DNA of 64,000 bases from a virus (Duplodnaviria > Caudoviricetes): positions 1 through 64,000 of IMG/VR virus record IMGVR_UViG_3300033067_002132. One strand, written 5' to 3'. Each line of letters begins with the position of its first letter. The stretch's first letter is position 1. Below the pieces are notes generated by a model. It ran no database searches. It saw only the letters and a list, made by a program, of their open reading frames with translations, and was not told the DNA's origin. The translations under genes and the position numbers were made by a program. Below, piece by piece: positions 1 through 25,166 of the stretch.

Positions 1-2
1 GT

Positions 3-1262
3 ATTTCACTTTTAGCTAAGTGGATTCCTTCTATTAATACTTCTAGTCGAGAAAGTGTTTCTCAAGCATATAAGATTGCCAATTATTTTAATTGGAACGC
101 AAAGAAATATCGAAAGACTATTTCAGGATTACGCAAATATCTTGATGTAGTAGAACGAAGAATGTGTTCCAAAGAATGGGAGGGTATTGATTTTAATATT
201 GTTCCTTCTAACGCTACCTTATTATATAAGGACGCATTTAAGAAACACGATCCTACTCGCTATGCTAAATGGCAAGCAGACGTTAAAAAGGGTAAGAACG
301 GCGCAAAAATTAATGCGTCTACCTTATATCCTTATGATATTGTAAGAGATATCCTAAGTTATTCAGGAAATAGCGAAACTTGCAATTTGCAATGGGCCGC
401 ATTACCAAATTATTTAAAGAATAATCCAGATGAAGGTTTAGTATTATGTGATACTTCCTCTTCTATGGAAAGTTCGTTTAATGGAAACGCAATTCCTATT
501 CATGTTTCTGTTTCTTTAGCTTTATATATTGCAGAAAGAATGAAGGGACCATTCAAAAATCAATTCATTACTTTTGCTGAAAAGCCTCAATTAATTACTA
601 TTTCAGGAAAGACGATTACTGAAAAAGTTAAAAATATTGCAAAGGCACCTTGGGGTGGAAATACTAATTTAATGGCTGTATTTAAGTTAATTCTTAATTC
701 TGCTATGACTTGGAATGTTCCTCAAGAAGAAATGCCAAAGATATTATATATTGTATCTGATATGGAATTCGATTCCGCTTGTAAGAGTAATTCATTAACT
801 AATTTCGAGGAAGCAAAGAGATTATTTAAGAATTCAGGATACGAATTACCAAAGGTTGTCTTTTGGCGCGTAAACGTTATCAAAGAACAACAACCTGTAA
901 CTTTAGCAGAAAAGAATACTGTTTTAGTATCTGGATGTTCACCATCCGTATTACAAACCGTTCTATCTAATAGAGTTGTAACGCCGTTCTCTATTATGTT
1001 AGAGAAGTTAAATTCAGAACGTTATAATCGAGTAACAACACTTGGTAGTTGGAAAAATGTAAATTTTCCTGTTACTGTAGAAGGTAATATCGAAAATGTA
1101 TTAGAAGATACTTTTAGTTGTTTTCGCGAACAAGCAAAAGAAAAGAAACAAAAAAAAGTACAAAGTGTTGCTAAGGAATCTTTTCCAAAAAATCTAAAGG
1201 TTAGAGATCTAAATGGTCGATATACTAAATTAGAAAAAGGAAAGATAGTTAAAATAGCTTAA
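3..1262 (+). CDS. Ro60/TROVE-like vWA protein (DUF2828/DUF7788-like), 5'-truncated by window edge
   Basis: Frame is open from position 3 (ISLLAKWIPS...). MIDAS-like DTSSSM, WGGNTN, SDMEFD, VFWRV and VSGCSPS motifs are typical of this family. Confidence 0.8.
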   Translation: MSLLAKWIPSINTSSRESVSQAYKIANYFNWNAKKYRKTISGLRKYLDVVERRMCSKEWEGIDFNIVPSNATLLYKDAFKKHDPTRYAKWQADVKKGKNGAKINASTLYPYDIVRDILSYSGNSETCNLQWAALPNYLKNNPDEGLVLCDTSSSMESSFNGNAIPIHVSVSLALYIAERMKGPFKNQFITFAEKPQLITISGKTITEKVKNIAKAPWGGNTNLMAVFKLILNSAMTWNVPQEEMPKILYIVSDMEFDSACKSNSLTNFEEAKRLFKNSGYELPKVVFWRVNVIKEQQPVTLAEKNTVLVSGCSPSVLQTVLSNRVVTPFSIMLEKLNSERYNRVTTLGSWKNVNFPVTVEGNIENVLEDTFSCFREQAKEKKQKKVQSVAKESFPKNLKVRDLNGRYTKLEKGKIVKIA

Positions 1263-3189: not shown

Positions 3190-3915
3190 ATGAGAAGATC
3201 AAAAATATATACTGTTTCAGACGAAGATTTTATTTTTTTAGTTAAAAATTCCAAGTCAATGTCTGAATTACTTTCTAAACTTATATTAGAAAATAAAGGT
3301 GGAAATTATTTAACAGTTAAAAGAAGGATTAAACAATTAAATATTAGTACCGAACATTTTTTATCTAGAACAAACGCTAGTCTTGCTGTAAATAAAATGA
3401 CGTTAGAAAAATTTTTAGAATTAATTAAAGGTAATTCAAAAATAAAAAGACATTCATTAAAAATATATTTATTACGTTTCAATTTAAAAGAATATAAATG
3501 TTTTATTTGTGAAAATGATGGATATTGGAATAATCAAAAATTAAGTTTACAATTAGATCATATTAATGGAAATAGTAATGATCATCGTTTAGATAATATA
3601 AGATTTTTATGTCCAAACTGTCATAGTCAAACAGATAATTTTGCGGGTAAAAAACGTAAAATTAGTAGAGAACCTTATAAATGTAAAAATTGTAATAAAA
3701 TTAAATTAAATAAAAGTCCGTTATGTATGGATTGTTTTATAATGGGAAAACATAATATTTTAAATATATCTGTAGATAATCTTTTAGAAAAAATTAAATT
3801 AAATTCTATGAGAGAGGTTTCAAGATTATTAAATATTCCTTATACAAGTTTAACAAGATTTTGTATTAAAAATAATATAGATTATAAAAATTTATGTCCA
3901 TCATTTCATGATTAA
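3190..3915 (+). CDS. HNH homing endonuclease
   Basis: LQLDHINGNSNDHRLDNIRFLCPNCHSQT. Confidence 0.9.
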   Translation: MRRSKIYTVSDEDFIFLVKNSKSMSELLSKLILENKGGNYLTVKRRIKQLNISTEHFLSRTNASLAVNKMTLEKFLELIKGNSKIKRHSLKIYLLRFNLKEYKCFICENDGYWNNQKLSLQLDHINGNSNDHRLDNIRFLCPNCHSQTDNFAGKKRKISREPYKCKNCNKIKLNKSPLCMDCFIMGKHNILNISVDNLLEKIKLNSMREVSRLLNIPYTSLTRFCIKNNIDYKNLCPSFHD

Positions 3916-4058: not shown

Positions 4059-4134
4059 GGGCGTGTAGACCAAAAGCAGAGTTAACAGACTTAAAATCTG
4101 TCAAGTGTCGGTGCAAGACCGGCCACGCCTACCA
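4059..4134 (+). tRNA. tRNA-Leu(TAA), short variable loop
   Basis: ACAGA-CTTAAAA-TCTGT, 5-nt variable loop, CCA. Confidence 0.85.
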
Positions 4135-4200
4135 AATTTAGTTTAGATAAAAAAGAGTTTGACGAAAAGACAAACCTTTGATAGTATAGATGAAGATTTA

Positions 4201-4310
4201 AAGATACGTACAGCAACAATACATTTAATGTATAGCTCAATTAGCTGAGCATTTGCCTATCAAGCAAACGATGTGGGTGCGATTCCCGCTACAATAAAAA
4301 ACGTATCTTG
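4201..4310 (+). ncRNA. ACAGCAA-stem RNA copy 1, carrying a tRNA body
   Basis: AAGATACGT(4201-4209)/ACGTATCTT(4301-4309) + ACAGCAA enclosing D arm, anticodon arm (loop CTATCAA) and T arm; no CCA. Confidence 0.75.
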
Positions 4311-4322
4311 TTATTTCACAAT

Positions 4323-4417
4323 TTGCGAGTGTTTGAAAGACCGCTTATAAACGTCAATCTTTCAAATTTGGGCGCAAGTGCCGCGAGCGTAATTCAGCGA
4401 ATAAGCACTACTCGCAA
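4323..4417 (+). ncRNA. Unknown three-way-junction RNA
   Basis: TTGCGAGT/ACTCGCAA closing stem with TTTGAAAGA/TCTTTCAAA and AGTGC/GCACT arms. Confidence 0.5.
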
Positions 4418-4427
4418 TTTAATTTAA

Positions 4428-4503
4428 GCCGTCGTGCCTCGACTAGTAAGGGGCTTGTTTTGTAAACAAGTTTATATAGGAGCATAACCTATCGGCGGCT
4501 CCA
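4428..4503 (+). tRNA. tRNA-Thr(TGT)
   Basis: CTTGT-TTTGTAA-ACAAG, CCA. Confidence 0.85.
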
Positions 4504-4508
4504 GTTTT

Positions 4509-4640
4509 TAGATCCGTACAGCAACGTTAATCCTTAATGGAAAAGCAATTAGCCTTGAAAGCTAAGTATCCTAGTTCAAATCTAGGTCTGGGGACCAATT
4601 TTATTTTCCCCCAGATATGCAAAATAAAAAACGGATCTAG
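4509..4640 (+). ncRNA. ACAGCAA-stem RNA copy 2, carrying a circularly permuted tRNA
   Basis: TAGATCCGT/ACGGATCTA + ACAGCAA; inside, a 3' tRNA part ending TCTGGGG-ACCA precedes its 5' acceptor strand CCCCAGA-TA-TGC. Confidence 0.75.
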
Positions 4641-5308
4641 TTCAATTTAGAATTAATAATATTAGTAATAATATCTAAAAAGTATTTAGCTTTTTCGATC
4701 TTAAAATAAGTAAATTTTGAAGAATCAATAATACATAATTCTATATTATTTTCTAGACATGCTTGAAATTTTCTAGAATCATTATTTTTGATTTGATCCA
4801 ATTTTTCTTTTCCAAAAATAGGTTCATAATGAAAAATACCATTTAGCTCAAAAGCAAGTTTTAAAGATGGAATATGAATATCTAATTCAGAATTTATAGC
4901 GTCTTTTTTATTAAAATGAAATTCTAAATGTGGGTATAACTTAATAAGTTCAGATTGTAAATATTTCTCTAATTTAGAGATACGAGTTCCTGTAGTTTTG
5001 TGAGTATTATGATAAGTAGCAGAACAAGATTGTGAGCAAAAAGATTTATTTGATTTAATTTGAGAAATAATACGACTAAATTCTGTTTGACAAACTTCAC
5101 ATTTTAAAGATCGAACATTTCTTTGACTATCTGTTAAACATTTTCTAGAACAATATTTCATAAAATATCTATTAGATTTATTATTTAAAGATCTTTTAAT
5201 ATATTTTTGCATTCTAAAAAATTTATTTTTACAAAATTCGCATTCTAAAGGCAATAACTCATTATACTTAAAATTATTTAAAGTATTTATATCAAATAGA
5301 GGTTTCAT
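4637..5308 (-). CDS. Zn-finger + PD-(D/E)XK (Vsr/DUF559-like) homing-type endonuclease
   Basis: CxxC/YCS repeats; ELDIHIP...AFELNGIFHY. Confidence 0.75.
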   Translation of the reverse strand: MKPLFDINTLNNFKYNELLPLECEFCKNKFFRMQKYIKRSLNNKSNRYFMKYCSRKCLTDSQRNVRSLKCEVCQTEFSRIISQIKSNKSFCSQSCSATYHNTHKTTGTRISKLEKYLQSELIKLYPHLEFHFNKKDAINSELDIHIPSLKLAFELNGIFHYEPIFGKEKLDQIKNNDSRKFQACLENNIELCIIDSSKFTYFKIEKAKYFLDIITNIINSKLN

Positions 5309-6831: not shown

Positions 6832-6897
6832 AAGATCCGCACAGCAACAATAAAAATTATCACTCCATCATTACTGTGATAAGTAAAACGGATCTTG
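6832..6897 (+). ncRNA. ACAGCAA-stem RNA copy 3
   Basis: AAGATCCG/CGGATCTT + ACAGCAA enclosing a TTATCAC/GTGATAA hairpin. Confidence 0.7.
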
Positions 6898-7383: not shown

Positions 7384-7454
7384 GCGATAAGGCTGGGAAT
7401 GGTTTTCCGGAAACTTTCATAAGGTTTTGTAATCTGTTCGATTCAGATCTCGCT
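7384..7454 (+). pseudogene. tRNA-Met(CAT)-like, 3' acceptor strand damaged
   Basis: AAACT-TTCATAA-GGTTT and ATCTG-TTCGATT-CAGAT intact; 3' strand shortened, no CCA, overlapped by the end of the opposite-strand endonuclease gene. Confidence 0.65.
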
Positions 7455-8075
7455 TTTATCTTCTAATAAATCAATAATATATTTATTAAAATATTCTGTA
7501 AGAAATTTTTCAGTTAGTTTCTTAGATGTAAGATGACTTATATTTATAATTAATAAATTTATATTTTTTTGTTGTATTTCTAATTGTTTTAATAAGTCGT
7601 TATTTTGACATCTTTTTAATTTTTCTTGTCCATATATTGGAAAATAATGTACAGGACCATTTAATTCTATAGCAATCTTTTTAGAAGGAATATAAATGTC
7701 AAATTCTAAACTATTAGGTAAAGTATTTCTATCGTTTTCAATAATATGTAAAGAAGGAAAATCATTTTTTATTATATTTACTAATATTTTTTCAGCGCGA
7801 CTTTTGTTAATTCCAAATCTAGAAGATTTATTCCAGGTTCTATTTGCATAAGAAGCTTGACAAGATCTATTACAAAATTTTAAATTAGATTTACGCAAAG
7901 TTTTAGAAATATATTTTAAAGATTTTTTTGAGCAATTTGCACAAATAATCTCTGTTTTATTTATTGAATTATAATATTTAGTACAACATTGTTTGGAACA
8001 ATATTTAGTATGTTTTTGCAAAATTTTATTGCAAAATAAACAATTATATTTTTTTGTAATAATTATATTCTTCAT
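7443..8075 (-). CDS. Zn-finger + PD-(D/E)XK homing-type endonuclease
   Basis: LEFDIYIP...AIELNGPVHY; paralog of 4637-5308. Confidence 0.75.
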   Translation of the reverse strand: MKNIIITKKYNCLFCNKILQKHTKYCSKQCCTKYYNSINKTEIICANCSKKSLKYISKTLRKSNLKFCNRSCQASYANRTWNKSSRFGINKSRAEKILVNIIKNDFPSLHIIENDRNTLPNSLEFDIYIPSKKIAIELNGPVHYFPIYGQEKLKRCQNNDLLKQLEIQQKNINLLIINISHLTSKKLTEKFLTEYFNKYIIDLLEDKSEI

Positions 8076-8105: not shown

Positions 8106-8194
8106 GGGATATAAGGCGAAGTGTCGAGCCACAACCCTGTCACGGTTGCATTTAGTAAAATAAATAGTGGGTGCGAGCCCCATATATCCCGCCA
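8106..8194 (+). tRNA. tRNA-Asp(GTC) with long variable region
   Basis: CAACC-CTGTCAC-GGTTG; ~18-nt variable region; CCA. Confidence 0.8.
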
Positions 8195-8717: not shown

Positions 8718-8792
8718 GGCCCTATAGTGTAACAGTTAGCACGAGACTCTTTGAAAGTCTTTGTATAGGTGCGAATCCTTTTGGGGCTGCCA
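8718..8792 (+). tRNA. tRNA-Gln(TTG)
   Basis: AGACT-CTTTGAA-AGTCT, CCA. Confidence 0.85.
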
Positions 8793-10190: not shown

Positions 10191-10952
10191 ATGAGCATTA
10201 GATCAGAACATGTAAAAATCTGGAGAGATAGAATTAAACAAAGAATTATTGATGCATTTAATGGTAAATGTGGAATTTGTGGTTATAATAAATGTAACGC
10301 GGCATTAGAATTACATCATATAAATCCAAGTGAAAAAGATTTTAGTTTTGGTAGAATAAGAGCGAATCCAAAAAATTGGGAATCTTTAGTTAGAGAATTA
10401 AGAAAATGTGTTTTATTATGTTCTAATTGTCATAGAGAAATTCATAATAACGTTTCTGAATTACCCAAAGATATAATTCGTTTTGATGAAGATTTTGCAG
10501 ATTACAAGAAAATAGAACTTTCGTTTAAAACAGAAACAATTATAAATAATTGTCCTATTTGTGGAAAAACTAAATATGTATGGAATAAAACATGTTCTTA
10601 TAATTGTGCTAATAAATTAATTGGTGTTTATAAATGGGAAGAATATAATTTAGAAGATTTATTTTTAAATAAAAAATATAAAATAGAAGATATTGCTGAT
10701 TTAATAGGTTGTTCTAATCAGGCAGTAATTAAACAATTAATTAAACAGAATTTATATAAACAAAAGAAAAAACATTTAATAAAATGGCCAAGTAAAGATA
10801 TTTTAGAAAAAGAAGTAAAAGAAAAATCTTTAAAAACGATATGTCAAGAAATAGGATGTTCTCATACTGGTCTAAGAAGACATTTAAAGACAATAGATAT
10901 AAAATGGTATGGACCTGGATTTTGGCAAAAAAAGAAATTTAATAAGTTTTAA
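10191..10952 (+). CDS. HNH homing endonuclease with C-terminal HTH repeats
   Basis: CGICG...LELHHINP...CVLLCSNCHREIH. Confidence 0.9.
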   Translation: MSIRSEHVKIWRDRIKQRIIDAFNGKCGICGYNKCNAALELHHINPSEKDFSFGRIRANPKNWESLVRELRKCVLLCSNCHREIHNNVSELPKDIIRFDEDFADYKKIELSFKTETIINNCPICGKTKYVWNKTCSYNCANKLIGVYKWEEYNLEDLFLNKKYKIEDIADLIGCSNQAVIKQLIKQNLYKQKKKHLIKWPSKDILEKEVKEKSLKTICQEIGCSHTGLRRHLKTIDIKWYGPGFWQKKKFNKF

Positions 10953-11331: not shown

Positions 11332-11407
11332 CACCTGTTCGCCTAACTTGGCTATGGCATCGCGTTTGGGTCGCGAAATAATAAAAGTTCAAATCTTTTA
11401 CAGGTGA
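11332..11407 (+). tRNA. tRNA-Pro(TGG), CCA not encoded
   Basis: CACCTGT/ACAGGTG, TCGCG-TTTGGGT-CGCGA. Confidence 0.85.
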
Positions 11408-12440: not shown

Positions 12441-12507
12441 TAGATCCATACAGCAATAAAAAATACTACTTGCCTGTTAAGCAAACAAAGTAAAAAACTG
12501 GATCTAG
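12441..12507 (+). ncRNA. ACAGCAA-stem RNA copy 4, carrying an anticodon stem-loop
   Basis: TAGATCCA/TGGATCTA + ACAGCAA enclosing TTGC-CTGTTAA-GCAA (loop identical to both tRNA-Asn loops). Confidence 0.75.
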
Positions 12508-19112: not shown

Positions 19113-19200
19113 GGAAGATTGACAGAGTAGTAATGTATCGGTTTGCTAAACCGGAGTCTCGGTAAAACGGGCATAGGTGCGATCCCTATATCTTCCGCCA
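19113..19200 (+). tRNA. tRNA-Ser(GCT)
   Basis: Loop TTGCTAA, long variable arm, G73, CCA. Confidence 0.9.
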
Positions 19201-23065: not shown

Positions 23066-23142
23066 GGGTTGCGGGTGTTAATAGACAACATGACTAGCTC
23101 TTAACTAGATCGATAGGGGTGCGATTCCCCTGCGACCCACCA
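23066..23142 (+). tRNA. tRNA-Lys(CTT)
   Basis: Loop CTCTTAA, CCA. Confidence 0.9.
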
Positions 23143-23277: not shown

Positions 23278-23354
23278 GCTCTCGTGGCTCGAAAAGATTA
23301 GGCAACAGCCTTCTAAGCTGATTTACGTGGGTGCAAATCCTACCGGGAGCGCCA
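23278..23354 (+). tRNA. tRNA-Arg(TCT)
   Basis: Loop CTTCTAA, CCA. Confidence 0.9.
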
Positions 23355-25091: not shown

Positions 25092-25166
25092 GGTCATATA
25101 ACTCAATAGTAGAGTAAAGTCTTGATAAGGCTTAAGTTGTAGGTGCAAGTCCTATTATGACCACCA
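25092..25166 (+). tRNA. tRNA-Ile(GAT)
   Basis: AAGTC-TTGATAA-GGCTT, CCA. Confidence 0.9.

What the first reader, a model, noticed from the sequence alone, without database searches (positions are those of the whole stretch)
4201..4310. tRNA body whose acceptor end is replaced by the ACAGCAA stem; A34 anticodon
Seen: GCTC/GAGC D arm, TTTGC-CTATCAA-GCAAA (anticodon ATC) and GTGGG-TGCGATT-CCCGC T arm, but only a 4-bp acceptor (TGTA/TACA) that runs into the conserved stem, with no CCA. It sits directly behind a TTGACG promoter (4159). Inference: an unchargeable decoy rather than a decayed tRNA, because all arms are intact.
Basis: partly seen in the sequence, partly recalled or inferred. Interest (0 to 1): 0.7.

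Follow-up and report, generated by a model that had tools for sequence, protein, structure and literature searches.

The report
tRNA look-alike on Ro60-type RNA handle
This phage RNA gene is a complete tRNA-shaped body mounted on a short conserved "handle" that travels with a Ro60-shaped protein gene in many phages and bacteria, so it is most likely a tRNA mimic carried by an undescribed Y-RNA-like particle and not a working aspartate tRNA.

Summary
The sequence is real, but one part was misread. Positions 4226-4297 are a full-length cloverleaf (Rfam tRNA 55 bits; ARAGORN Asp-ATC). Six of its 7 acceptor pairs form, not a 4-bp stub. It has no CCA, although 19 of this phage's 21 tRNA genes encode one.

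The body sits inside a 9-bp closing helix followed by ACAGCAA. This handle occurs five times in the genome. In 80 phage and 80 prokaryotic loci it clusters just upstream of DUF2828/DUF7788 genes. That protein's model matches Ro60 structures over its full length.

Across those loci, handle-mounted tRNAs never end in CCA and have degraded acceptor stems. A34 in two-codon boxes occurs in 4 of 18 of them, against 2 of 433 free tRNAs. This copy lacks G73, G34, C38 and G2:C71, which AspRS needs. The phage has a tRNA-Asp(GUC) with all of them at 8106-8194.

Best reading: a Y-RNA-like handle RNA displaying an uncharged tRNA mimic. Ro60-like binding and any decoy role are inferred.

The same handle design occurs in dictyostelid Class I RNAs. 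No Rfam family covers it. This scan has already noted the family in at least 77 other genomes.

The parts
4159..4187 (+). Sigma-70-like promoter match, TTGACG-17-TAGTAT with TG before the -10. It would start transcription a few bases before the handle.
   Evidence: One search gives 9 of 12 consensus positions. It has the same form as the sites at 2403, 3922 and 5352. This is a consensus match only, and transcription is not shown.
4201..4209 (+). Handle, 5' strand of the closing helix (AAGAUACGU).
   Evidence: It pairs with 4301-4309 with probability 0.79-1.0. Sister copies carry compensatory changes: AGAUCCG/CGGAUCU and AGAUCCA/UGGAUCU.
4210..4216 (+). Invariant single-stranded motif ACAGCAA.
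   Evidence: It is identical in four copies in the window. It is invariant in 38 aligned elements from other phages. It is also the core of the dictyostelid Class I motif CCUUACAGCAA.
4219..4233 (+). Leader hairpin AUACAU-UUA-AUGUAU. It competes with the acceptor stem and would close the acceptor end.
   Evidence: One search gives pair probabilities of 0.73-0.97. The analogous leader hairpin AUUUUUC/GAAAAAU occurs in the handle-mounted tRNA of L074 4671-4786.
4226..4297 (+). tRNA-shaped cargo. It has a 7-position acceptor with an A:A mismatch at 3:70, a D arm, an anticodon arm, a T arm and discriminator A. It has no CCA.
   Evidence: Rfam RF00005 scores it 55.1 bits over model positions 1-71. 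ARAGORN calls it tRNA-Asp(atc).
4259..4261 (+). Anticodon ATC (A34 U35 C36) in the loop CUAUCAA.
   Evidence: A34 in a two-codon box is found in 4 of 18 handle-mounted tRNAs against 2 of 433 free tRNAs.
4301..4312 (+). Handle, 3' strand of the closing helix (ACGUAUCUU) plus the conserved GUU tail. An A-run at 4297-4300 precedes it.
   Evidence: The family consensus is A-rich, then ...YCU(U/A), then GU(U).
4508..4640 (+). Sister handle RNA 2. Its cargo runs D-like arm, anticodon arm (UGA), T arm, then a closed acceptor hairpin holding an internal ACCA.
   Evidence: (Rfam tRNA 26.4 bits, model positions 7-64).
6832..6896 (+). Sister handle RNA 3. Its cargo is a simple hairpin.
   Evidence: z-score -3.5.
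12441..12506 (+). Sister handle RNA 4 (ACAGCAAU). Its cargo is a bare Asn-type anticodon stem-loop, UUGC-CUGUUAA-GCAA.
3..1262 (+). C-terminal 419 codons of the DUF2828+DUF7788 gene, the presumed Ro60-like protein partner. The N-terminal 147 codons lie at the other end of the contig, G000 193303-193743. A minimal handle-like hairpin (AGAUCCU-AACAACAAAACUUCAAAA-AGGAUCU) sits just before its ribosome-binding site, at G000 193259-193290.
   Evidence: phrog_850 'RNA-binding protein'. The model of a 75%-identical homologue has Ro60/TROVE structures as its top 12 PDB matches.
8106..8194 (+). tRNA-Asp(GUC) that reads with the full identity set: G73, G34-U35-C36, C38, G2:C71, G10 and an encoded CCA. 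It makes the ATC copy redundant for decoding.
   Evidence: Direct reading and a cloverleaf minimum-free-energy fold. ARAGORN and Rfam do not call it, because of an odd D arm and an 18-nt variable region.

Best explanation
The locus encodes a non-coding RNA of about 110 nt, made of two modules, of a widespread and uncatalogued Y-RNA-like class.

Module 1 is a 'handle'. It consists of a 9-bp helix formed by the two ends of the RNA, the invariant single-stranded ACAGCAA right after the 5' strand, an A-rich 3' linker and a GUU tail. I infer that it is the binding site of the phage's Ro60-shaped protein (DUF2828+DUF7788), as the terminal stem of Y RNAs is for Ro60.

Module 2 is the cargo. Here it is a complete tRNA-Asp-derived cloverleaf. 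Its acceptor end is weak and has no CCA. The leader is predicted to close it, and its anticodon carries A34.

I infer that this body is not aminoacylated and does not decode. Instead it presents a tRNA shape, in particular an Asp/Asn-type anticodon loop with an A in place of G34, to tRNA-binding factors. Candidates are G34-specific anticodon nucleases or tRNA-guanine transglycosylase. The body would act either as an uncleavable bait or as a tether that brings such factors to the Ro60-like particle.

Shown: the anatomy, the family, the gene linkage, the Ro60-like fold of the model, and the class-wide loss of charging features. Inferred: protein binding, absence of charging, and the decoy or tether role.
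For: Anatomy:
-.

The handle is a family:
- There are five copies in this genome with covarying stems.
- In 80 IMG/VR loci holding DUF2828 genes, 128 'stem + ACAGCA' elements lie on the gene strand against 12 on the other strand. Control hexamers give 3-17.
- 47 of 93 elements lie in the 500 nt just upstream of the gene, and 30 of 47 complete loci have at least one within 1.5 kb.
- In 80 bacterial and archaeal-MAG loci the count is 195 against 7, with controls at 7-12.

The partner has a Ro60-like fold:
- The top 12 PDB matches of the model are all Ro60/TROVE, aligned over 510-578 columns, with E-values from 1e-7 to 2e-4.

Bridge to known Y RNAs:
- One handle element next to a 44%-identical DUF2828 gene (L035 2885-2990) hits Rfam YrlA at 49 bits, E 1.6e-9. 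It has the T arm, closed acceptor and D arm layout.
- At least 12 other elements share that layout.

The cargo is tRNA-derived:
- Loops of the form CU-NNN-AA on stems occur 24 times against 0.7 expected.

Handle-mounted whole tRNAs as a class (n = 16):
- 0 of 16 end in CCA, against 172 of 447 free tRNAs.
- Acceptor pairs average 5.56 of 7 against 6.85 (p = 8e-21).
- A34 in two-codon boxes occurs in 4 of 18 against 2 of 433 (p = 2.6e-5).
- L139 and L152 carry the same cargo and differ by G34 against A34.

This copy:
- It has no CCA, while 19 of 21 tRNAs in this phage encode one.
- It has A73, A34, A38 and A2:U71, while the tRNA at 8106-8194 has G73, G34, C38 and G2:C71.
- The identity rule is established knowledge for E. 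coli tRNA-Asp (Giege et al. 1998) and is cited from memory.
- The phage has no CCA-adding enzyme and no TadA-like enzyme.
Against: - Nothing here shows that the RNA is made, that the protein binds it, or that it is uncharged.
- The cloverleaf scores as well as genuine tRNAs of this phage (55 bits). RNase P and host 3' processing plus CCA addition could in principle release a tRNA from it.
- GAU makes up 89% of Asp codons (817 against 102), so an A34 tRNA-Asp would pair perfectly with the main codon.
- The unusual elbow (A18/G55) is shared with about half of the phage's ordinary tRNAs, so it says nothing against function.
- The DUF2828 protein has no sequence-level match to TROVE. The fold match comes from a predicted model with pLDDT 76 and TM about 0.5.
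- In this genome four of the five handles lie 3-11 kb from the gene, not beside it.
- No close relative could be found to test conservation of this particular element.
Confidence: 0.6

Rival explanations
1. It is a working tRNA-Asp(AUC). The handle is only a paired leader and trailer of the precursor. RNase P and 3' processing release the tRNA and the host adds CCA. A34 then reads the dominant GAU codon, and may also make the tRNA resistant to G34-specific anticodon nucleases. This would parallel phage tRNAs with anticodon-loop changes that evade host nucleases.
For: - It is a full cloverleaf at 55 bits, with intact D, anticodon and T arms.
- It has its own promoter-like site.
- GAU accounts for 817 of 919 Asp codons.
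- The A18/G55 elbow is normal for this phage's tRNAs.
Against: - It is one of two of 21 tRNA calls without an encoded CCA. The phage has no CCA-adding enzyme.
- Four of seven AspRS identity elements are missing, while the GUC gene at 8106-8194 has all of them.
- The acceptor has a mismatch and is predicted to be out-competed by the leader hairpin.
- The handle carries an invariant motif that also closes RNAs with no tRNA in them, and it tracks a Ro60-like gene.
- Handle-mounted tRNAs as a class have degraded acceptors.
Confidence: 0.15
2. It is a decaying tRNA pseudogene that happens to lie within a handle. For example, a handle RNA may have captured a tRNA copy by recombination in the tRNA array. 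On this reading the cargo has no function of its own.
For: - It has an acceptor mismatch, no CCA and an A34 substitution.
- The cargo of sister copies looks like different cuts of tRNA genes, including an internal ACCA followed by the AUUUU context typical of this phage's tRNA 3' ends.
Against: - Decay is selective. The D, anticodon and T arms are fully paired (U.G allowed), and only the charging end is degraded.
- The same pattern recurs in 16 independent handle-mounted tRNAs from phages and bacteria.
- Anticodon-loop-like hairpins are about 30-fold enriched in cargo.
Confidence: 0.1
3. The handle is not a protein-binding module. It would instead be a processing, termination or cis-regulatory structure of tRNA operons, such as an RNase III-type stem. 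Its position near DUF2828 genes would be a by-product of both living in tRNA clusters.
For: - Handles often abut tRNA genes directly (L072 and L074).
- T-rich sequence follows some copies.
- A minimal copy sits in the 5' leader of the DUF2828 gene.
Against: - The enrichment peaks in the 500 nt upstream of the gene and not across the flanks generally.
- It holds in bacterial loci that have few or no tRNA genes nearby.
- An invariant 7-nt single-stranded motif is not expected of a terminator or an RNase III site.
- The same design makes stable, abundant RNAs in dictyostelids (PMC7919456).
Confidence: 0.1

Closest known systems
Y RNAs with Ro60/Rsr, especially bacterial and phage YrlA (Rfam RF02553; Chen et al. 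2014, PMC4201824) and the Yrl1/Yrl2 RNAs of Thermus phage phiLo (PMC12135203)
   Same: - The RNA is modular: a stem formed by the two ends, with a conserved motif on the 5' side, plus a variable module that mimics tRNA.
- Several paralogues are encoded next to the gene of a ring-plus-vWA protein.
- The arrangement occurs in phages.
- One handle element in a related phage hits the YrlA model at E 1.6e-9.
   Different: - The conserved motif is ACAGCAA, not GNCGAA or GGUCCGA.
- The protein is DUF2828/DUF7788. It resembles Ro60 only at the fold level, with no TROVE sequence match.
- This copy carries a whole cloverleaf in normal order with an anticodon arm. YrlA has the T arm, closed acceptor and D arm order and no anticodon arm.
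- It gives no Rfam YrlA hit.
Class I RNAs of dictyostelid social amoebae (Kjellin et al. 2021, PMC7919456)
   Same: - The handle design is the same: a short covarying terminal stem, the motif CCUUACAGCAA directly after the 5' strand, a variable middle, an A-rich stretch, the 3' strand, then UG(U).
- The start is AAG and the end is C-UGU.
- The core ACAGCAA is identical.
   Different: - Class I RNAs are 42-65 nt. No tRNA-like cargo has been described for them.
- They are reported as unique to Dictyostelia.
- Their known binding protein is the RRM protein Rnp1A.
- No link to DUF2828 has been reported. Whether dictyostelids have a DUF2828 gene was not tested here.
Phage tRNAs with altered anticodon loops that evade host anticodon nucleases (T5-type; recalled from the literature, not read here)
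   Same: It is a phage-encoded tRNA-shaped RNA whose anticodon loop departs from the host-type sequence at a position that nucleases read.
   Different: Those are chargeable, decoding tRNAs. This one lacks CCA and the identity elements, and it is tied to a handle.
Ordinary tRNA (Rfam RF00005)
   Same: It has the complete cloverleaf, at 55 bits.
   Different: - It has no CCA in a phage that encodes CCA on its tRNAs.
- It has A34 in a two-codon box.
- The acceptor stem is weak and mismatched.
- It is embedded in the handle.

Membership tests
tRNA (RF00005), as a decoding tRNA-Asp | Cloverleaf that scores above the Rfam gathering threshold | tested here: met
   55.1 bits against a gathering score of 29, over model positions 1-71. 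ARAGORN also calls it.
tRNA (RF00005), as a decoding tRNA-Asp | Stable 7-bp acceptor stem with a free 3' NCCA end | tested here: not met
   Six of 7 pairs form, with A:A at 3:70. There is no CCA, while 19 of 21 tRNAs here encode it. The 3' strand runs into the handle. The leader hairpin is favoured by 7.4 kcal/mol. Host CCA addition cannot be excluded.
tRNA (RF00005), as a decoding tRNA-Asp | AspRS identity set: G73, G34, U35, C36, C38, G10 and G2:C71 (E. coli rules, cited from memory) | tested here: not met
   It has A73, A34, A38 and A2:U71. Only U35, C36 and G10 are present. The gene at 8106-8194 has the full set. Charging itself cannot be tested with these tools.
tRNA (RF00005), as a decoding tRNA-Asp | Anticodon of a kind used by decoding tRNAs (G34 or Q34 in NAY boxes) | tested here: not met
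   The anticodon is AUC. Among 433 free tRNAs of the compared loci, only 2 have A34 in a two-codon box.
YrlA (Rfam RF02553) | Score at or above the Rfam gathering threshold | tested here: not met
   There is no YrlA hit at E <= 10 in 4100-4700. A relative's element reaches 49 bits against a gathering score of 69.
YrlA (Rfam RF02553) | tRNA-like domain in the order T arm, closed acceptor stem-loop, D arm, with the terminal stem in place of the anticodon arm | tested here: not met
   The order here is D arm, anticodon arm, T arm, with the handle at the acceptor end. A closed acceptor is predicted only through the leader hairpin.
YrlA (Rfam RF02553) | 5' motif GNCGAAN0-1G (PMC4201824) | tested here: not met
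   The motif is not in 4201-4310. ACAGCAA stands in its place.
Y RNA in the broad sense (RNA partner of a Ro60-type protein) | Encoded with a Ro60-type protein (TROVE ring plus vWA) | tested here: inconclusive
   At the fold level it is met: the top 12 PDB matches are all Ro60. At the sequence level it is not: there is no TROVE match. Gene-RNA linkage is met in 30 of 47 phage loci and in bacterial loci.
Y RNA in the broad sense (RNA partner of a Ro60-type protein) | Physical binding to the protein | not testable with these tools
   This needs EMSA or co-purification.
Dictyostelid Class I RNA (PMC7919456) | Short terminal stem, then an 11-nt motif (CCUUACAGCAA) after the 5' strand, with conserved AAG start and CUGU end | tested here: inconclusive
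   The stem is present (9 bp), the start is AAG, and ACAGCAA is identical (7 of 11 motif positions). The end is CUUGUU. Sequences were compared with supplement files 19 and 46. The length of 108 nt lies outside the 42-65 nt range, and the taxon and promoter differ.
ACAGCAA-handle RNAs next to DUF2828 genes (operational family of this scan) | Covarying closing helix of 7-10 bp, ACAGCA(A) within 0-3 nt of the 5' strand, A-rich 3' linker, same strand as the DUF2828 gene and in its genome | tested here: met

The most novel reading that the evidence does not exclude
The ACAGCAA handle plus a DUF2828 Ro60-like protein forms a second, very widespread Ro/Y-type particle. It is found in phages, Clostridia and other bacteria, and in contigs binned to Asgard archaea. 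It has the same handle design as the unexplained Class I RNAs of social amoebae. Its cargo slots display tRNA bodies or bare anticodon loops. Copies such as this one carry a deliberate G34-to-A34 'dead' anticodon. That would make them uncleavable or unmodifiable baits for enzymes that read G34-U35, such as colicin-E5-like anticodon nucleases or tRNA-guanine transglycosylase. On this reading the phage uses the particle to win the fight over tRNAs.
Probability: 0.3. Interest if true: 0.85.

Novelty: new variant of a known kind. Interest (0 to 1): 0.68.

Why it matters
If the reading holds, Ro60/Y-RNA biology extends to a large protein family (DUF2828/DUF7788) that has no assigned function. My search found more than 2900 homologues at E <= 1e-10. 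It also extends to an RNA class absent from Rfam.

The dictyostelid Class I RNAs have had no known mechanism. This would give them a candidate protein partner and prokaryotic relatives.

It would also add a new way of using tRNA shape: whole tRNAs that keep every arm but have lost the charging end and carry 'forbidden' A34 anticodons. That makes a concrete, testable case for tRNA decoys or tethers in phage-host conflict.

For annotation, tRNA finders will call such cargo as tRNA-Asp(AUC), tRNA-Phe(AAA), tRNA-His(AUG) and so on. Those calls should not be counted as decoding capacity.

Tried and rejected
- An exact scan of IMG/VR for AGATCCGYACAGCAAY gave 33 hits. All were chance matches in coding DNA with no 3' partner.
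- A scan for this copy's anticodon arm (a 17-mer) gave 4 chance hits.
- Searches for close relatives of the phage through the Ro60-like protein found nothing above about 50% identity, in IMG/VR or in metagenome contigs.
- I first took G55 in the T loop and the missing GG in the D loop as signs of a dead tRNA. I rejected this, because about half of this phage's ordinary CCA-ended tRNAs share the UGC T loop with an AG D loop.
- I considered that the sister copy at 4508-4640 is a permuted tRNA gene re-joined after transcription. The phage has no RtcB or Rnl2-type ligase, and a closed acceptor is a YrlA trait. I therefore read it as a mimic.
- I considered A34-to-inosine editing by a phage enzyme. 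The deaminase-family ORF at 187785-188120 is dCMP-deaminase-like, at 21.5 bits against TadA's cut-off of 150. The other ORF matches nothing.
- A profile search of the PDB by sequence with the DUF2828 alignment gave no hit. Only the fold comparison links the family to Ro60.
- I did not build a covariance model. The elements were picked by perfect stem complementarity, so pair counts on them would be circular. The control-hexamer, strand and position tests serve instead.

Full report
**What is at 4201-4310**

- Rfam aligns 4226-4297 to the whole tRNA model at 55.1 bits against a gathering score of 29. ARAGORN calls tRNA-Asp(atc).
- The arms are a D arm GCUC/GAGC, an anticodon arm UUUGC-CUAUCAA-GCAAA with anticodon A4259-U4260-C4261, and a T arm GUGGG-UGCGAUU-CCCGC.
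- The acceptor is not a 4-bp stub. UAAUGUA (4226-4232) faces UACAAUA (4290-4296), with six pairs and one A:A mismatch at 3:70. A4297 is the discriminator.
- No CCA follows. An A-run leads into ACGUAUCUU (4301-4309), which pairs with AAGAUACGU (4201-4209).
- Right after that 5' strand comes ACAGCAA (4210-4216).
- A sigma-70-like match, TTGACG-17-TAGTAT, lies at 4159-4187. The transcript would therefore begin a few bases before the helix.

**The acceptor end is weak**

Folding the 111-nt element gives the outer helix, the three arms and a leader hairpin AUACAU-UUA-AUGUAU (4219-4233). That hairpin uses the 5' acceptor strand.
- This fold has -29.2 kcal/mol against -21.8 for cloverleaf plus helix.
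- Acceptor pair probabilities are about 0.001.
- Nearest-neighbour energies ignore tRNA tertiary contacts, so this is a prediction and not a measurement.
- A handle-mounted tRNA in an unrelated phage (L074 4671-4786) has the same kind of leader hairpin.

**The flanking stem is a family**

The same frame occurs at 4508-4640, 6832-6896 and 12441-12506.
- The helices change in step: AGAUACG/CGUAUCU, AGAUCCG/CGGAUCU and AGAUCCA/UGGAUCU. The cargo is different in each copy.
- A fifth, minimal version (AGAUCCU-AACAACAA...-AGGAUCU) lies at the other end of the contig, directly before a ribosome-binding site and a start codon.

**The gene behind that fifth copy**

That gene runs off the contig end and resumes at window position 3.
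- Both halves match DUF2828 and DUF7788, and phrog_850 'RNA-binding protein'.
- It has no sequence match to TROVE or to any PDB chain.
- I modelled a 75%-identical full-length homologue with 28 relatives. The model has pLDDT 76 and pTM 0.72.
- Its top 12 PDB matches are all Ro60 or TROVE proteins: Xenopus, human, Deinococcus and Thermus phage phiLo. They align over 510-578 columns with E-values from 1e-7 to 2e-4. Isolated vWA domains follow.
- The protein is therefore Ro60-shaped: a helical-repeat ring plus a vWA domain.

**The RNA and the gene travel together**

In a phage whose DUF2828 protein is 44% identical (L035), five tandem elements with different stems but the same ACAGCAA precede the gene. 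One of them hits Rfam YrlA at 49 bits, E 1.6e-9. It has the T arm, closed acceptor and D arm layout of Y RNAs described by Chen et al. 2014 (PMC4201824).

I then fetched 80 IMG/VR loci through the protein alignment. In them I scanned for a perfect 7-bp stem bracketing ACAGCA.

| Test | Result |
|---|---|
| IMG/VR loci, gene strand against other strand | 128 against 12 |
| IMG/VR loci, seven control hexamers | 3-17 |
| Elements in the 500 nt just upstream of the gene | 47 of 93 |
| Complete loci with at least one element within 1.5 kb | 30 of 47 |
| 80 loci from prokaryotic genomes, gene strand against other strand | 195 against 7 |
| Prokaryotic loci, control hexamers | 7-12 |

- The prokaryotic loci include isolates such as Selenomonas sputigena and Oscillibacter valericigenes.
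- The consensus is (U/A)AG-stem, 0-2 nt, ACAGCAA, variable cargo, an A-rich stretch, the 3' stem ending in YCU, then GU(U). Stems are 7-10 bp.
- No Rfam 15 family covers these elements. The only hits are tRNA hits inside some of them.

**What the cargo is**

Cargo falls into a few types.
- Bare hairpins. Many of them have anticodon-like loops of the form CU-NNN-AA, 24 observed against 0.7 expected from shuffled cargo.
- YrlA-type modules in the order T arm, closed acceptor, D arm.
- Modules in the order D arm, anticodon arm, T arm, closed acceptor. The sister copy at 4508-4640 is of this type.
- Whole tRNAs in normal order, as in the finding.

**Handle-mounted whole tRNAs as a class**

Sixteen of 321 distinct handles carry a tRNA that ARAGORN calls. 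I compared them with 447 free tRNAs of the same loci.

| Feature | Handle-mounted | Free |
|---|---|---|
| End in CCA | 0 of 16 | 172 of 447 |
| Acceptor pairs of 7, mean | 5.56 | 6.85 (Mann-Whitney p = 8e-21) |
| All 7 acceptor pairs formed | 1 of 16 | 394 of 447 |
| A34 in a two-codon box | 4 of 18 | 2 of 433 (Fisher p = 2.6e-5) |

- The D, anticodon and T arms stay paired in the eight cargo tRNAs drawn out.
- The four A34 anticodons are Phe AAA, His AUG, Ile AAU and Asp AUC.
- Two near-identical cargos, L139 and L152, differ by G34 against A34.
- In L094, all 22 ordinary tRNAs encode CCA. There the handle carries a second, CCA-less Glu(UUC) body beside a normal tRNA-Glu(UUC).

The pattern is selective loss of the charging end and of the wobble-position rule, with the tRNA shape kept.

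**This copy against the phage's own tRNAs**

- Nineteen of 21 ARAGORN tRNAs here end in an encoded CCA followed by A/T-rich sequence. The ATC copy is one of the two exceptions.
- The phage has no CCA-adding enzyme, RtcB, Rnl2-type ligase or TadA-like deaminase that I could detect.
- At 8106-8194 there is a tRNA that neither tool calls. It reads and folds as tRNA-Asp(GUC) with G73, C38, G2:C71, G10 and CCA.
- The ATC copy has A73, A34, A38 and A2:U71. By the published E. coli identity rules (cited from memory) it should be a very poor AspRS substrate.
- Its T arm, GUGGG-UGCGA, matches that of the GUC gene. This suggests descent from a tRNA-Asp.

**What speaks for a working tRNA**

- GAU is 89% of Asp codons, so A34 would pair perfectly with the common codon.
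- The A18/G55 elbow, which I first took as a defect, is shared by about half of this phage's ordinary tRNAs and covaries between the D loop and the T loop.
- Host enzymes could process the precursor and add CCA.

I give this rival 0.15.

**Comparison with what is known**

*Ro60 with Y RNAs.* This is the closest system: a terminal stem bearing a conserved 5'-side motif, plus a variable and often tRNA-like module. Several paralogues lie beside the protein gene, also in phages (PMC4201824; PMC12135203; PMC7824862). Three things differ here. The motif is ACAGCAA and not GNCGAA. The protein family is different. This copy has a normal-order cloverleaf with an anticodon arm.

The published sequences read stem, CCUUACAGCAA, variable region, A-rich stretch, stem, then UG. 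They start with AAG and end in CUGU (PMC7919456). That paper reports the class as unique to Dictyostelia and gives it no mechanism. Whether dictyostelids have a DUF2828 gene was not tested here.

**Verdict**

The arms, the anticodon, the absence of CCA, the stem and the promoter match are right. The 4-bp acceptor is wrong.
'Unchargeable' is a well-founded inference. 'Decoy' is untested.
- The thing itself is one member of a large, uncatalogued Y-RNA-like family, and belongs to its whole-tRNA, A34 subtype.
- This scan has already reported the family on other DNA, with 104 notes in at least 77 genomes, and on the sister copy at 4509-4640. My analysis reached the same reading before I opened those notes. 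I then used two of their leads: the tRNA at 8106 and the Class I RNAs.

Noticed in passing
window, tRNA genes throughout (e.g. 4059-4134, 8718-8792, 19113-19200, 23066-23142, 23278-23354, 25092-25166): About half of this phage's CCA-ended tRNAs have a T loop that starts UGC (G55 in place of U55). Exactly those have AG in place of the universal GG in the D loop. tRNAs with a UUC T loop mostly keep GG (Leu-CAA does not). This looks like an A18/G55 elbow pair replacing G18/psi55 in a whole subset of tRNAs.
   Followed up: partly
window 8106-8194: A tRNA-Asp(GUC) with the full AspRS identity set and CCA, a 3-bp D stem and an 18-nt variable region. Both ARAGORN and Rfam miss it.
   Followed up: partly
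G000 193259-193290 (L034 7260-7291): A minimal handle-like hairpin with ACAACAA in place of ACAGCAA and no cargo. It lies directly before the ribosome-binding site of the Ro60-like gene, so it may be an autoregulatory operator.
   Followed up: no
window 1-3 and G000 193743-193745: The Ro60-like gene is cut by the ends of the contig. The two halves are out of frame by one base and about 7 profile positions are missing, so the record's ends lie inside a gene.
   Followed up: partly
window 4311-4427: Between handle RNA 1 and the tRNA-Thr-like gene at 4428-4500 lies a 117-nt stretch closed by UUGCGAGU/ACUCGCAA, with an inner 10-bp hairpin. The fold z-score is only -1.6.
   Followed up: partly
L072 and L074 (IMG/VR loci), e.g. 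L074 318-540 and 4671-5460: Handle RNAs alternate with tRNA genes with only 1-6 nt between them. Their ends could therefore be cut by RNase P and 3' tRNA processing of the neighbours.
   Followed up: no
L094 2688-3065: A phage contig with a DUF2828 gene and 22 tRNAs also encodes a full bacterial class B RNase P RNA, at 238 bits.
   Followed up: no
L134 and L149 (contigs binned to Promethearchaeota): DUF2828 genes with ACAGCAA handles upstream occur on contigs assigned to Asgard-archaeal MAGs. Whether these contigs are viral or mis-binned was not checked.
   Followed up: no
window 3190-3915 (+), 4637-5308 (-), 7443-8075 (-), 10191-10952 (+): HNH or homing-endonuclease-like genes are interspersed among the tRNA and handle RNA genes.
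   Followed up: no
window 11332-11407: This is the only other ARAGORN tRNA without an encoded CCA, tRNA-Pro(tgg), ending ...ACAGGUGA. It has no ACAGCAA handle.
   Followed up: no
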